64,000 nucleotides of DNA from a bacterium (GCA_963635575.1 CAVHFU010000002.1:17768-81767), one strand, 5' to 3'. Shown: positions 18,719-21,726, numbered from the stretch's first letter. Numbers and translations are program-made. Notes: a model not told the origin generated them from the sequence alone.

Positions 18719-19006
18719 ATGAGAATTTCAGGAAATGTTTCAGCAGTAACAGGAATTTATACGAATGACAAAAAAATCTCTAAAGTAGAGAATGTTAATA
18801 AATTAAGTTTAGGGAAAGATGATATTAAAATTTCTAGTAAAGCTAAGGATTATACTACAGCTATGAATGCGTTAAAGGATGTTCCGGATGTAAGACAAGA
18901 TAGAGTTGATGAGATATCTGCTAAATTTGCAAAAAATGAATATAAAGTTTCCGGAGATGATATTGCTGATAAAATTCTAAACGGTGGTTTTGATGCATCA
19001 ATATAG
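18719..19006 (+). CDS. flgM: Anti-sigma-28 factor FlgM
   Basis: 96 aa; C-terminal ...RQDRVDEISAKFAKNEYKVSGDDIADKIL. Location after comFC, as in Bacillus. Confidence 0.65.
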   Translation: MRISGNVSAVTGIYTNDKKISKVENVNKLSLGKDDIKISSKAKDYTTAMNALKDVPDVRQDRVDEISAKFAKNEYKVSGDDIADKILNGGFDASI

Positions 19007-19108
19007 TAAAGTGGTTTTTGGGCGATGAGAATCGCCTTTTTTTCTTGCTTAAATATTTGACACATAGCATATAAATTTGATATATTACTGTGTACGGGGG
19101 TATTTACA

Positions 19109-19528
19109 ATGGAAAGAATAATGATTAACATAGACGGAACACAAAATTTCGGAAATGGAGAAGCTAATAATGTTGAGCTTACTACGGAAGGTGAACTTAG
19201 TGTTTCTGTAGATTCGTATACCTTAAAGTATAAAGAGAGTGAACTAACCGGGATGGAGGGCACTACTACTGAAATTACTGTTGAAAATAGCGGAATAGTA
19301 AATCTAATTAGAAGTGGTACCGTAAATTCTAATTTGGTTTTTGAAGAAGGAAAAAGGCATTTGTCTTACTACGATACAAACGATGGAGCATTTTCAATTG
19401 GAGTATTTGCTAGTTATGTGGATACGGTTTTAGAAAGAAATTATGGAGAAATATCTATAACATATGCCATGGATGTAGATGATAAACCAATTGGAGAAAA
19501 TGAGATAAGAGTAAGATTTAAGAGATAA
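19109..19528 (+). CDS. DUF1934 (YwiB-like) beta-barrel protein
   Basis: 139 aa; SELTGMEGTTTEI...SYYDT pattern recalled from YwiB-family proteins. Confidence 0.5.
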   Translation: MERIMINIDGTQNFGNGEANNVELTTEGELSVSVDSYTLKYKESELTGMEGTTTEITVENSGIVNLIRSGTVNSNLVFEEGKRHLSYYDTNDGAFSIGVFASYVDTVLERNYGEISITYAMDVDDKPIGENEIRVRFKR

Positions 19529-19543
19529 AAAACTAATTTTCTA

Positions 19544-19650
19544 TTGAATTTTATGGAAATATATAGTAATATATAAATATAATATGAAATTTATGGTTCG
19601 TACTATAAGTATGAAAGAGAAAAGAGACTGTTTCCCCAGTCTCTTTTCTT
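19544..19650 (+). ncRNA. Putative small antisense/antitoxin RNA (promoter through bidirectional terminator)
   Basis: TTGAAT - 17 nt - TAATAT promoter (19544-19572). ~70-nt transcript ends at hairpin AGAGACTGtttccccCAGTCTCT + T-run. Its 5' part UUUAUGGUUCGUACUA is complementary to the translation initiation region of the convergent peptide mRNA. Confidence 0.35.
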
Positions 19651-19658
19651 TTTCCCTA

Positions 19659-19733
19659 TTATTCTACTATTGATGTAAGTAATATTAAGATGAAAATAGT
19701 AAGTAGAATAACTCTTATGAATTTATGGTTCAT
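19659..19733 (-). CDS. 24-aa hydrophobic micropeptide (type I toxin-like): MNHKFIRVILLTIFILILLTSIVE
   Basis: Minus strand. TTGATT - 17 nt - TATTAT promoter at ~19775-19803, strong AAGGAGG RBS 7 nt before ATG, and a shared bidirectional terminator. A single TM helix with a charged end. Confidence 0.4.
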   Translation of the reverse strand: MNHKFIRVILLTIFILILLTSIVE

Positions 19734-19920
19734 ACTACGCCTCCTTTCCGTCGTATTTGCGACTACCGGTGGCAAACAAATAATACCATATATTGGAATA
19801 AAAATCAACCAATTTCTGTAATAATTGGATTAAAATTCTATGTAAAAAACTATTACTTGATAAACCACAAGTAAATGTGATAAAATATAATGTAAAATTG
19901 TAATTATAAGGAGAAAGTTT

Positions 19921-21726
19921 ATGCAACAAGACAAAATTAGAAATTTTAGTATTATAGCACATATAGATCACGGAAAATCTACATTAGCGGACAGAATGTT
20001 AGAACTTACAGGTGTTTTATCTAAAAGAGAGATGGAAGACCAGGTTTTAGATAATATGGATATAGAGCGTGAACGCGGAATTACTATTAAAGCACAAGCA
20101 GTAAGAATGCTTTATAAGGCACATGACGGTGAAACGTATGAGCTTAATTTAATAGATACCCCGGGACATGTTGACTTTAACTATGAAGTGTCAAGAAGTT
20201 TGGCTGCTTGTGAAGGAGCAGTTTTAGTTGTAGATGCTTCACAAGGTATAGAGGCACAAACTTTAGCTAATACATATTTAGCATTGGAAAATAATTTAGA
20301 AATATTGCCTGTTATAAACAAGGTTGATTTGCCAAATGCAAGGCCAGATGAAATTGCACATGAAATAGAAGATGTCATTGGACTAGAAGCTATGGATGCT
20401 CCTAGAATTTCAGCAAAATCGGGTCTAAATGTTGAGGCAGTTTTAGAAGAAATAGTAAAGAAAGTTCCGGCGCCAACTGGAGATGAAAATAAGCCACTAA
20501 AGGCACTTATATTTGATTCTTTCTATGATAATTACAGAGGTGCTATTTCGTATGTTAGATTAAAAGAAGGACAAGTCAAGGTGGGCGATACAATTTTAAT
20601 GATGTCTACTGGTAAAACATTTACAGTAACGGAAGTAGGATATTTTAGACCGGGGAGCTATATTCCGACAGATGTCCTAAAGGCAGGACAAGTTGGATAT
20701 GTTGCCGCAAGTATAAAGAATGTAAGTGATACACGTGTTGGTGATACAATTACTAATGCTAATAACAGAACAGATACACCACTAGAAGGCTATAAAAAGG
20801 CAGTACCAATGGTGTTCTGTGGAGTATATCCTGTTGATGGAGCTGATTATGAGAATTTAAAAATGGCGTTAGAAAAATTACAATTAAACGATGCAGCACT
20901 ACTTTTTGAACCAGAAACTTCTATAGCACTTGGTTTCGGATTTAGATGTGGCTTTTTAGGGCTTCTTCATTTAGAAATTATTCAAGAAAGATTAGAGAGA
21001 GAATATAATCTTAATTTAATTACTACTGCTCCGAGCGTTATTTATAGGGTTACAAAAACTGATGGTGAAGTGGGTATGGTTTCTAATCCAACTAATTTAC
21101 CTGCTCCACAGGAAATTGATTTTATGGAAGAACCTATGGTTAAGGCTTCTATTATGCTTCCAAAGGAGTTTGTAGGAAACATTATGGAATTATGTCAGGA
21201 CAGACGCGGAAATTATTTAAATATGCAGTATTTAGATGAAACCAGAGTTACATTGATTTATGAATTACCACTTAACGAGATTATTTATGATTTCTTTGAT
21301 GCATTAAAATCGAGAACTAAAGGATATGCTTCCTTTGACTATGAACTTATAGGATATAATCGCTCAAAGCTTGTAAAGTTGGATATTTTACTTAATAACG
21401 AAGTGGTAGATGCGCTATCATTTATTGTTCATGAGGATAAAGCGTATGTAAGAGGAAGAAAAATTGCTGAAAAATTGAAGGATGTTATCCCAAGACAATT
21501 ATTTGAAGTGCCAATTCAGGCAGCAATAGGTGGAAAAATTATTGCAAGAGAGACGATAAGTGCTATGAGAAAAGATGTATTGGCAAAATGTTATGGTGGA
21601 GATATCTCAAGAAAGAGAAAACTACTTGAAAAACAGAAAGAGGGAAAAAAGAGAATGAGACAGGTTGGTTCTGTTGAAATCCCTCAAGAGGCATTTATGT
21701 CTATCTTAAAACTTGACGATAATTAA
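19921..21726 (+). CDS. lepA: Elongation factor 4 (LepA)
   Basis: [21 protein letters not shown]1 motif, DTPGHVDF; 601 aa. Confidence 0.9.

What the first reader, a model, noticed from the sequence alone, without database searches (positions are those of the whole stretch)
19544..19803. Compact convergent sRNA / 24-aa hydrophobic peptide locus with Fst/par-like type I toxin-antitoxin architecture
On the minus strand there is a complete mini-gene.

- TTGATT-17-TATTAT promoter, AAGGAGG RBS, and ORF MNHKFIRVILLTIFILILLTSIVE (one TM helix).
- A terminator hairpin (AGAGACUG…CAGUCUCU) that is shared bidirectionally.

On the plus strand, a TTGAAT-17-TAATAT promoter (19544-19572) drives a ~70-nt RNA ending at the same terminator. 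That RNA contains UUUAUGGUUCGUACUA (19589-19604). It is a near-copy of plus-strand 19723-19738, UUUAUGGUUCAUACUA, so it is complementary with one G·U to the AUG/initiation region of the peptide mRNA (…gcgUAGUAUGAACCAUAAAuuc…).

Convergent transcription, a shared terminator and 5' direct repeats giving sRNA-mRNA complementarity over the start codon are the defining features of the Enterococcus par (Fst/RNA II) type I TA family. This locus is unannotated in the ORF track (peptide <60 aa).
Basis: partly seen in the sequence, partly recalled or inferred. Interest (0 to 1): 0.7.

Follow-up and report, generated by a model that had tools for sequence, protein, structure and literature searches.

The report
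Small-RNA-controlled membrane peptide gene (toxin-antitoxin-like)
Between two housekeeping genes of an uncultured gut Clostridia bacterium sits a 265-base cassette with a 24-residue membrane peptide gene and an opposing small RNA that pairs across the peptide's start codon; it is built like the enterococcal par/Fst toxin-antitoxin system, but its peptide is unrelated to Fst.

Summary
Window 19544-19808 contains two convergent promoters, one shared hairpin terminator (19613-19654), and a minus-strand ORF with a GGAGG ribosome-binding site encoding MNHKFIRVILLTIFILILLTSIVE. It also contains a plus-strand ~75-nt RNA whose 5' part can form about 23 bp with the peptide mRNA across its AUG.

I found four further sequence types of this cassette at the same site (DUF1934 gene | lepA) in related gut metagenome assemblies.
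- **Conserved in all:** promoters, terminator stem, SD, 24-25-codon hydrophobic ORF, and a 5' anti-SD segment.
- **Pairing co-varies:** the sRNA-mRNA pairing region changes sequence but stays complementary. Eleven intermolecular pairs changed on both sides. Cognate duplexes are -22 to -28 kcal/mol, and 0 of 500 shuffles matched them in each variant. Between-clade non-cognate pairs are mostly near background.
- **Present or absent:** strains with 94-98% identical neighbours lack the cassette.

Best reading: a type I toxin-antitoxin-like module with par/Fst-RNA II architecture and a new, non-Fst peptide family. The peptide has no PXXXG motif, no charged tail, and no Pfam, NCBIfam or Rfam match. 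Transcription and toxicity are untested. It is a new member of a known kind and moderately interesting.

The parts
19544..19572 (+). Promoter of the small RNA: -35 TTGAAT (19544-19549), 17-nt spacer, -10 TAATAT (19567-19572). An alternative TGGAAA-18-TATAAT lies at 19554-19583.
   Evidence: Read directly from the sequence. TTGAWT-17-TAnnAT is conserved in all five sequence types. The alternative promoter is listed.
19579..19657 (+). Predicted antitoxin-like small RNA, about 75-79 nt: a 5' hairpin that carries the target-recognition sequence, followed by the terminator hairpin. The 5' end is inferred from the -10 box and the 3' end from the U-run.
   Evidence: Fold of -31.5 kcal/mol, z = -8.6. 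No conserved ORF and no SD (read directly from the variants). No Rfam family matches.
19583..19606 (+). sRNA segment complementary to the translation initiation region of the peptide mRNA. It contains direct-repeat copy 1 (19588-19605).
   Evidence: (D2), (duplex of -27.8 kcal/mol, 0/500 shuffles as good; compensatory changes).
19613..19654 (.). Shared bidirectional intrinsic terminator: stem GAAAGAGAAAAGAGACTG / CAGTCTCTTTTCTTTTTC with loop TTTCCC. It gives the two RNAs about 45 nt of 3' overlap.
   Evidence: The stem is conserved while the loop varies, and L068 has a compensatory A-U to G-C change.
19659..19733 (-). ORF for the 24-aa single-helix hydrophobic peptide MNHKFIRVILLTIFILILLTSIVE (stop codon included).
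   Evidence: Homologues are 24-25 aa with an in-frame indel. Start, stop and SD spacing are invariant. Codon position 2 changes least. GRAVY is 1.6-2.1.
19716..19738 (-). Target site on the mRNA, nt 36-58 of the predicted transcript. It spans 5 nt upstream of the AUG through codon 6 and contains direct-repeat copy 2 (19720-19737).
19740..19746 (-). Shine-Dalgarno sequence AAGGAGG, with 6 nt between it and the AUG.
   Evidence: GGAGG is invariant in all variants.
19768..19773 (-). Predicted 5' end of the mRNA, GCCACC. It acts as an anti-SD segment that pairs with GGAGGC.
   Evidence: The MFE and centroid fold. The consensus fold shows the five pairs kept in 5/5 sequences.
19613..19773 (-). Predicted peptide mRNA, about 161 nt: 5' anti-SD helix, small hairpin, start-codon hairpin, an ORF-internal helix (19702-19712 with 19658-19668), and the terminator.
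   Evidence: -46 kcal/mol, z = -5.8; consensus structure, 5 pairs with compensatory changes; I7.
19780..19808 (-). Promoter of the peptide mRNA: -35 TTGATT (19808-19803), 17 nt, TG-n-TATTAT (-10 at 19785-19780).
   Evidence: Conserved in all variants. It is a 79% inverted repeat of the sRNA promoter (I1).

Best explanation
This is a chromosomal type I toxin-antitoxin-like cassette built like the enterococcal par (Fst/RNA II) locus, but carrying an unrelated and very short peptide.

1. A roughly 161-nt mRNA is made from a near-consensus extended -10 promoter on the minus strand.
2. On its own, the mRNA folds so that its extreme 5' end (GCCRCC) pairs with the Shine-Dalgarno GGAGG, which keeps translation low.
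3. A convergent small RNA of about 75 nt ends at the same hairpin terminator.
4. The 5' part of that RNA forms about 23 bp with the mRNA from 5 nt upstream of the AUG to codon 6, which should block ribosome binding. First contact could occur through the complementary terminator loops, as in par, or through the sRNA 5' hairpin and the start-codon hairpin of the mRNA.
5. If the sRNA falls relative to the mRNA, the 24-residue peptide is made. It has a positively charged N-terminus (MNHKFIR), a 17-residue hydrophobic helix and a C-terminal Glu. It would insert into the membrane and arrest growth or damage the cell.

Shown: the sequence elements, their conservation, the co-varying complementarity, the predicted folds, and the presence/absence polymorphism.

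Inferred: that both RNAs are made, that the peptide is translated and toxic, and the relative RNA stabilities.
For: **Anatomy:**

**Homologous cassettes:** they occur at the same site in L068-L073, L002, L003/L045/L048 and L046/L047/L051/L052. nhmmer detects no other full copy in the 267 kb held, only a second sRNA-promoter fragment in L002.

**Conservation:** both promoters, the terminator stem, the SD, the AUG at mRNA position 41, the TAA stop and a hydrophobic 24-25-aa ORF are conserved.

**sRNA-mRNA pairing:**
- Cognate duplexes are -22.0 to -27.8 kcal/mol over mRNA nt 35-59 in every variant.
- None of 500 dinucleotide shuffles reached the cognate value in any variant.
- Between-clade non-cognate pairs are mostly near shuffle background (-8 to -18, rising to -21 for L068 sRNA on L003/L045 mRNA).
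- Eleven of about 23 intermolecular pairs changed on both sides with the pair kept.
- In L046 the whole recognition sequence is different (TATGTAAAATT(T)CATATTGC) yet still duplicated.

**mRNA structure:** the consensus fold keeps the 5' anti-SD helix in 5/5 sequences, and five pairs show compensatory changes. Single-sequence folds give z = -5.8 for the mRNA and -8.6 for the sRNA.

**Coding signal:** L002 versus L003 differ by 6 synonymous and 1 nonsynonymous change. L046 has an in-frame 3-nt indel. Codon position 2 changes least.

**Presence/absence:** over 30 contigs whose DUF1934 neighbour is 94-98% identical have only a 104-108-nt spacer. An unrelated cassette of the same design occupies the site in L049.

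**Match to published definitions:** sizes fit the published type I TA range of mRNA 150-400 nt, peptide 20-60 aa and asRNA 60-200 nt. A 3' overlap that does not cover the ORF, combined with interaction outside the overlap, is the arrangement described for Fst/RNAII and SprA1/SprA1as (PMC8594479). The features conserved across par-like loci are listed in PMC7472228.
Against: - There is no expression data and no toxicity data.
- The peptide matches no known type I toxin family. It also lacks the charged C-terminal region typical of Gram-positive type I toxins (PMC6563280).
- The dN/dS signal is weak overall (0.52), and one alternative frame scores similarly (0.41).
- All homologues come from one narrow lineage and one chromosomal site. 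The compensatory changes therefore represent only a few independent events, and some could reflect recombinational replacement of a module that carries both repeats.
- No homologues were found in the JGI metagenome scan, the viral contigs, plasmids, phages or the protein database.
- The window's own sRNA promoter is only 8/12 to consensus.
Confidence: 0.68

Rival explanations
1. The cassette encodes a non-toxic small membrane protein, for example a regulatory or anchoring mini-protein, whose synthesis is tuned by an antisense RNA. The RNA control would be the same as in the best explanation, but there would be no toxin-antitoxin behaviour.
For: The peptides of L002 and L003 give sub-threshold hits to the NCBIfam model for the stressosome-associated mini-protein Prli42 (18.9 and 16.6 bits against a cutoff of 27.5). 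The peptide lacks the charged C-terminal tail of most Gram-positive type I toxins. The locus lies in the core chromosome between housekeeping genes.
Against: - The window peptide itself gives no Prli42 hit, and that similarity is compositional (basic N-terminus plus a hydrophobic helix).
- The cassette is dispensable and patchy among near-identical strains, and it is replaced by an unrelated cassette of the same design. This fits a selfish or accessory module better than a housekeeping mini-protein.
- Double silencing, through an intramolecular anti-SD plus a 23-bp antisense duplex over the AUG, is the hallmark of genes whose product must be kept off.
Confidence: 0.2
2. The element is RNA-only. 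The ORF would not be translated, and the region would be a bidirectional terminator with flanking antisense transcripts that regulate the neighbouring DUF1934 or lepA genes. The repeats would be maintained by gene conversion.
For: The DUF1934 gene has no terminator of its own before the cassette, so the hairpin also serves that gene. Empty sites keep a terminator with the same 9-nt stem. dN/dS is not decisive.
Against: - An invariant strong SD lies at optimal spacing from an invariant AUG.
- The stop codon is invariant, ORF length is conserved with an in-frame indel, and hydrophobic character is preserved.
- The sRNA targets exactly the initiation region.
- The anti-SD helix only makes sense if the SD is functional.
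Confidence: 0.08
3. The region is a chance arrangement or a decaying remnant of a mobile element in AT-rich intergenic DNA, with no function.
For: Promoter-like hexamers are common in 30% GC DNA: 13 were found against 9.7 expected. The same site holds other insertions in relatives (L004, L063/L064).
Against: The whole cassette is conserved across five sequence types, with compensatory changes in three different helices and in the intermolecular duplex. No shuffle reached the observed duplex energy in any variant.
Confidence: 0.03

Closest known systems
par of Enterococcus faecalis plasmid pAD1 and its chromosomal relatives (Fst toxin mRNA RNA I / antitoxin RNA II)
   Same: It shares the convergent promoters, the shared bidirectional intrinsic terminator, and an sRNA on the 3' side that does not overlap the ORF. 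It also shares the direct DNA repeat that makes the sRNA 5' region complementary to the toxin initiation region, and the intramolecular 5' structure of the mRNA that hides the SD and the 5' end. The RNAs are a similar size to par RNA II (~65 nt) and RNA I (~210 nt); those two par sizes are from my own knowledge. The architectural features are taken from PMC7472228 and PMC8594479.
   Different: The peptide is 24 aa against 33 aa for Fst (my own knowledge) and lacks both the PXXXG motif and the charged C-terminal tail. Its charge sits at the N-terminus. There is no Pfam or NCBIfam Fst hit and no Rfam hit for the sRNA. There is one long repeat instead of DRa plus DRb. There is no YUNR U-turn in the mRNA terminator loop (GGGAAA). 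The host is an uncultured gut Clostridia lineage.
SprA1/SprA1as (PepA1) of Staphylococcus aureus
   Same: The antisense RNA overlaps the 3' end of the mRNA but acts in trans through a separate 5' region on the translation initiation region (PMC8594479). The product is a short membrane peptide.
   Different: PepA1 belongs to the Fst family and has an arginine-rich C-terminus (PMC7472228). No sequence similarity was detected here.
Clostridioides difficile type I TA modules (for example CD2517.1-RCd8 and CD0977.1-RCd11)
   Same: These occur in the same bacterial class and consist of a small hydrophobic toxin plus an antisense RNA. They were likewise found without homology to earlier families (PMC6563280).
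   Different: The C. difficile toxins are 34-59 aa with charged C-terminal regions, and they sit in prophages or next to CRISPR arrays. Here the peptide is 24 aa with no tail, and the locus lies between DUF1934 and lepA.
Ibs/Sib of E. coli (18-19-aa toxins; my own knowledge)
   Same: The toxin is a very short, almost purely hydrophobic peptide. Copy number and presence vary between strains.
   Different: Sib is fully antisense across the whole ibs ORF (PMC8594479). The system is from Gram-negative bacteria. No sequence similarity was found.
Prli42 stressosome-associated mini-protein (NCBIfam NF033880)
   Same: It has a basic N-terminus followed by a single hydrophobic helix. The peptides of two homologues give weak hits.
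   Different: The hits fall below the curated cutoff, and the window peptide gives no hit at all. No antisense RNA control is known for Prli42 (my own knowledge).

Membership tests
par / Fst-RNA II type I TA family | Convergent promoters for the toxin mRNA and the antitoxin RNA | tested here: met
   TTGATT-17-TGnTATTAT on the minus strand and TTGAAT-17-TAATAT on the plus strand. Both are conserved in five sequence types. This is sequence evidence only; no transcript data exist.
par / Fst-RNA II type I TA family | Shared bidirectional intrinsic terminator giving 3' complementarity | tested here: met
   The hairpin at 19613-19654 has A-rich and U-rich flanks on both strands. The stem is conserved with a compensatory change in L068, while the loops vary.
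par / Fst-RNA II type I TA family | Direct repeats transcribed in opposite directions (DRa and DRb in par), making the sRNA complementary to the toxin initiation region outside the 3' overlap | tested here: met
   There is one long repeat (19588-19605 / 19720-19737) within a duplex of about 23 bp across the AUG. It co-varies in the homologues. It is a single block rather than two repeats. The unrelated cassette in L049 has two.
par / Fst-RNA II type I TA family | Intramolecular structure in the toxin mRNA that sequesters the SD and the 5' end (5'-SL and 5'-UH) | tested here: met
   The 5' GCCRCC pairs with GGAGGY in the MFE and centroid folds and in the consensus of 5/5 sequences. This is prediction only.
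par / Fst-RNA II type I TA family | Fst-type toxin: hydrophobic domain with a PXXXG motif plus a charged C-terminal tail; match to the Pfam or NCBIfam Fst models | tested here: not met
   The window peptide contains no Pro and no Gly and ends in ...SIVE. No Pfam family matches at E <= 10 and no NCBIfam Fst hit was found.
par / Fst-RNA II type I TA family | YUNR U-turn motif in the terminator loop of the toxin RNA | tested here: not met
   The mRNA loop is GGGAAA in the window and L068. The loops of the other variants were read by eye and are not consistently YUNR (sequences). The review notes that this feature is not universal in the family.
par / Fst-RNA II type I TA family | Antitoxin RNA matches the Rfam families of type I antitoxins | tested here: not met
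   No match reaches gathering score in the window. At E <= 10 in 19000-20200 only chance hairpin hits appear.
Type I toxin-antitoxin systems (generic) | Short mRNA (150-400 nt) encoding a 20-60-aa hydrophobic peptide, plus a 60-200-nt antisense RNA that base-pairs with it (PMC8594479) | tested here: met
   The predicted mRNA is 161 nt, the peptide is 24 aa with GRAVY 1.71, the sRNA is about 75 nt, and the duplex is 23 bp.
Type I toxin-antitoxin systems (generic) | The peptide is toxic on overexpression and the RNA neutralises it | not testable with these tools
   This requires expression experiments.
Prli42 mini-protein (NF033880) | Score at or above the curated NCBIfam cutoff of 27.5 bits | tested here: not met
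   The window peptide gives no hit. The L002 and L003 peptides score 18.9 and 16.6 bits.

The most novel reading that the evidence does not exclude
The DUF1934|lepA intergenic site in this gut Clostridia lineage may be a cassette-exchange hotspot for par-type modules.

Strains whose DUF1934 protein is identical carry at least two family-A variants with different recognition sequences, an unrelated peptide/sRNA cassette of the same design (L049), and further variants that keep only the sRNA promoter (L076, the second copy in L002, L053). Close relatives keep only the terminator.

The par-like RNA scaffold would then be a reusable chassis into which unrelated peptides are fitted. Because DUF1934 has no terminator of its own, the antitoxin sequence would also be delivered in the 3' UTR of a housekeeping operon, tying toxin control to host transcription.
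Probability: 0.3. Interest if true: 0.65.

Novelty: new member of a known kind. Interest (0 to 1): 0.5.

Why it matters

This locus would add a new peptide family that is among the shortest reported, from an uncultured human and animal gut lineage.

It also shows that the distinctive par-type regulatory design can be paired with a peptide that is not Fst-like. That design consists of a 3'-overlapping sRNA acting in trans on the initiation region through a direct repeat, a bidirectional terminator and a 5' anti-SD helix. The pairing bears on whether the design spreads by descent or is repeatedly reassembled.

The natural set of co-varying sRNA/mRNA pairs amounts to a ready-made set of orthogonal RNA regulators. 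The strain-level presence/absence at a fixed site gives a tractable case for asking what such chromosomal modules do.

Tried and rejected
- **Rfam:** no family reached gathering score across the whole window, and at E <= 10 around the locus only spurious hairpin and miRNA hits to the terminator appeared.
- **Metagenome peptide scan:** the three-peptide alignment matched 600 patterns, none confirmed by tblastn.
- **Metagenome DNA scan:** the pattern spanning the SD and 5' UTR gave five hits, all chance matches inside GC-rich coding DNA.
- **Protein database:** the 49-aa extended ORF returned nothing, so gene callers evidently do not call this ORF.
- **Plasmid, phage and viral searches:** blastn against plasmids and phages gave only AT-rich chance matches in Borreliella plasmids. 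The viral-contig scans with the peptide alignment and a terminator-plus-ORF pattern found nothing.
- **Other peptide searches:** PADLOC and PDB sequence searches found nothing.
- **RNAcofold of the full RNAs:** this was uninformative. The 5' contact and the 3' terminator overlap cross each other, forming a pseudoknot, so the nested model shows only the terminator duplex.
- **dN/dS:** the ORF is too short for the value to be decisive.
- **Source record:** the look-up by the exact 135-aa protein P0011 failed.
- **Plus-strand 29-aa ORF inside the sRNA (19584-19673):** I considered whether it is real and rejected it. It has no SD, and it is interrupted after 8 codons in L002 and 1 codon in L046.

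Full report
**Setting.** The window is 30-35% GC. The finding lies in the 392-nt spacer between a DUF1934 gene (19109-19528, +; Pfam E = 1.7e-31) and lepA (19921-21726, +). Further upstream lie flgM and a comF-like gene. The closest public relatives are metagenome-assembled genomes labelled uncultured Clostridia or Eubacteriales, from human (Hadza) and animal guts.

On the minus strand:
- The promoter is TTGATT (19808-19803), 17 nt, TATTAT (19785-19780), preceded by a TG extended -10.
- The RBS is AAGGAGG (19746-19740).
- The ORF runs from ATG at 19733 to TAA at 19661-19659 and encodes MNHKFIRVILLTIFILILLTSIVE (GRAVY 1.71).

On the plus strand:
- The promoter is TTGAAT (19544-19549), 17 nt, TAATAT (19567-19572).
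- The hairpin at 19613-19654 follows, with A-rich and U-rich flanks in both directions.

The repeat is at 19590-19605 and 19722-19737, which is 1 nt off the stated coordinates. It occurs nowhere else in the 64 kb and extends to 18 nt (D2).

It has about 23 bp with one bulge and one G.U at the U of AUG, and covers mRNA positions 36-58 with the AUG at 41. Its energy is -27.8 kcal/mol, against -11.1 +/- 2.4 for 500 dinucleotide shuffles of the sRNA segment, none of which was as good.

**Comparative evidence.** I used the DUF1934 neighbour as an anchor. This retrieved syntenic loci from genome assemblies and, through exact-protein look-ups of its homologues, from many metagenome contigs.

The cassette occurs in five sequence types:

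| Sequence type | DUF1934 identity to window | Peptide |
|---|---|---|
| window | 100% | MNHKFIRVILLTIFILILLTSIVE |
| L068-L073 | 95% | MNHKFIKVILLTILLLILLTTVAE |
| L002 | 93% | MNNRFIKVILLIILFLILLTTSVE |
| L003/L045/L048 | 91% | MNNRVIKVILLIILFLILLTTSVE |
| L046/L047/L051/L052 | 91% | MKFYIIPKVILLVILFLMLLTSVVE |

All five keep both promoters, the terminator stem, GGAGG, an AUG at position 41 of the predicted mRNA, a TAA stop, and a hydrophobic ORF of 24-25 codons. The single length change is an in-frame 3-nt indel.

By contrast, more than 30 contigs whose DUF1934 protein is 94-98% identical to the window's have a spacer of only 104-108 nt. That spacer holds nothing but a small terminator. More distant relatives have other content there. 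The cassette is therefore a discrete, dispensable unit.

**Co-variation of the sRNA-mRNA pairing.** The recognition sequence differs between sequence types but is always duplicated:
- window: AAUUUAUGGUUCGUACUA
- L002: AAUAAAUCUAUU(A)UUCAUACUG
- L003: GAUAA(A/C)CCUAUU(G)UUCAUACUA
- L046: UAUGUAAAAUU(U)CAUAUUGC

Every cognate pair forms a duplex of -22.0 to -27.8 kcal/mol over the same mRNA positions (35-59). No shuffle out of 500 reached the cognate value in any variant. Between-clade non-cognate pairs are mostly near shuffle background, at -8 to -18 kcal/mol and reaching -21 for L068 sRNA on L003/L045 mRNA.

I tabulated the pairs by mRNA position. Eleven of about 23 intermolecular pairs show changes on both sides with the pair kept.

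This is the strongest evidence that pairing of the small RNA to the initiation region is under selection. There is a caveat. The variants come from one lineage, so the number of independent events is small. Some could also be module replacements that carried both repeat copies together.

**Structure of the two RNAs.** The window mRNA (19773 to 19613) folds at -46 kcal/mol (z = -5.8). Its first six bases, GCCACC, pair with GGAGGC of the SD. It also has a small hairpin, a hairpin holding the AUG, an ORF-internal helix (GUUAUUCUAC with GUAGAAUAAU, joining the VILL codons to the VE-stop codons), and the terminator.

RNAalifold on the five types returns the same architecture. The anti-SD helix is kept in 5/5 sequences, and five pairs show compensatory changes, including A-U to G-C in the L068 terminator.

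The sRNA folds into a 5' hairpin that carries the recognition sequence, followed by the terminator (-31.5 kcal/mol, z = -8.6). It has no SD, and its incidental ORF is not conserved.

**Coding evidence.** The ORF is too short for strong statistics. Overall pN/pS is 0.52, and one alternative frame scores 0.41. L002 versus L003 differ by 6 synonymous and 1 nonsynonymous change, and codon position 2 changes least (16 of 97 differences in codons 8-25). These results sit alongside the invariant SD, AUG and stop, the in-frame indel, and the fact that both silencing devices target the ribosome-binding region. Taken together, translation is the most economical reading.

**Comparison with known systems.** According to the Fst/Ldr review (PMC7472228), par-like loci conserve convergent promoters, a bidirectional intrinsic terminator, direct repeats that give complementarity over the initiation region, and intramolecular structures that hide the SD and the 5' end of the toxin RNA.

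The T1TAdb paper (PMC8594479) describes one arrangement for Fst/RNAII and SprA1/SprA1as only among the families it lists. In those two families the antisense RNA overlaps the 3' end of the mRNA but not the ORF, and the interaction occurs outside the overlap.

All of these architectural features are met here. The sRNA ends at about 19657, and the ORF stop codon occupies 19659-19661.

The toxin-level criteria are not met:
- The window peptide has no Pro or Gly, so it has no PXXXG motif.
- It has no charged C-terminal tail.
- It gives no hit to any Pfam family at E <= 10.
- It gives no NCBIfam toxin hit.
- The sRNA matches none of the Rfam families.
- The mRNA terminator loop (GGGAAA) has no YUNR motif.

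The locus therefore works like par but cannot be filed as an Fst family member. It also differs from the C. difficile type I toxins, which are 34-59 aa with charged C-termini and are linked to prophages or CRISPR arrays (PMC6563280).

The only sequence lead is a sub-threshold Prli42 hit for two homologues. I treat this as compositional.

**Distribution.** No homologue was found outside this lineage and site. A scan of the window for other SD-preceded short hydrophobic ORFs returned three other short hits that I did not examine.

**The site is a hotspot.** Contigs that encode the identical DUF1934 protein (P0030) carry several different things downstream. Some have an L003-like cassette (L045) and some the L046-type cassette. 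L049 has an unrelated cassette of the same design: peptide MMQLILVVALYIIYLILKLIANV, its own hairpin terminator, and two sRNA/mRNA repeats reminiscent of DRa and DRb.

L076 has a DUF1934 gene 100% identical to the window's. It keeps the sRNA promoter but diverges immediately after the -10 box. The second copy in L002 does the same.

Empty sites retain a terminator whose 9-nt stem (AAAGAGACT/AGTCTCTTT) equals the cassette terminator stem. Either the cassette was lost around its terminator or it was assembled on a resident one. I cannot tell which.

**Verdict.** The best explanation is a par-type type I toxin-antitoxin-like module with a new, non-Fst 24-aa peptide (confidence 0.68).

The main rival is a non-toxic, antisense-regulated membrane mini-protein (0.2). 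The RNA-only and chance-or-remnant readings are unlikely (0.08 and 0.03).

It is a new member of a known kind, and interest is moderate (0.5). The comparative support is unusually clean for a computational type I TA call, and the cassette-exchange hotspot is worth following. The class and mechanism are well known, however, and function remains untested.

Noticed in passing
L049:1918-2207: An unrelated cassette of the same design occupies the same DUF1934-downstream site. It has a TTGACA-type sRNA promoter, a hairpin terminator CCGAGTG...CACTCGG, a minus-strand SD-preceded ORF encoding MMQLILVVALYIIYLILKLIANV, and two sRNA/mRNA repeats (GATGAGTTG and TTGCAACCA) that resemble par DRa and DRb. 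Its DUF1934 protein is identical to that of L045 and L046, which carry family-A cassettes.
   Followed up: partly
L076:1038-1090; L002:2256-2353; L053:1239-1277: The sRNA promoter, or at least its start, is retained, but the sequence after the -10 box is unrelated to the window cassette. L002 also carries a duplicated 3' fragment of the DUF1934 gene. The contigs end here, which suggests further cassette types or strain heterogeneity that breaks the assemblies.
   Followed up: partly
L063:1420-1750 and L064:1420-1572: In two contigs with identical DUF1934 protein (P0059), a segment of about 150 nt upstream of lepA lies in opposite orientations. It is flanked by inverted repeats (GTTTTAGAA..GTTAT.CAAATT). 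This may be an invertible DNA switch or a palindromic mobile element.
   Followed up: partly
L004:4420-4733: A different 313-nt insert sits at the same site. It has a 33-nt perfect-looking inverted repeat (AGTCAGACTATTATTATATGAAAATAGTATATATG) around a small hairpin, and no obvious peptide ORF.
   Followed up: no
L001:4418-4450, and L015-L044, L067, L074: Cassette-free sites keep a terminator AAAGAGACT-AAAAA-AGTCTCTTT whose 9-nt stem is identical to the stem of the cassette's bidirectional terminator. Whether this reflects loss around the terminator or assembly on a resident terminator is unresolved.
   Followed up: partly
window 19544-19572 and 19780-19808: The two convergent promoters are 79% identical to each other as a 29-nt inverted repeat, spacer included (I1). 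This hints at a common origin or shared regulation.
   Followed up: no
window 19528-19613: The DUF1934 gene has no terminator before the cassette. Read-through transcripts of the upstream operon would therefore carry the antitoxin recognition sequence in their 3' UTR and end at the shared terminator. This is inference.
   Followed up: no
L046:1756-2133 (minus strand), also L047, L051, L052: The public gene call lists a 125-aa (123 aa in L051) minus-strand ORF with no Pfam hit. It overlaps the 3' end of DUF1934 and the cassette. It is most likely an annotation artefact in AT-rich DNA.
   Followed up: no
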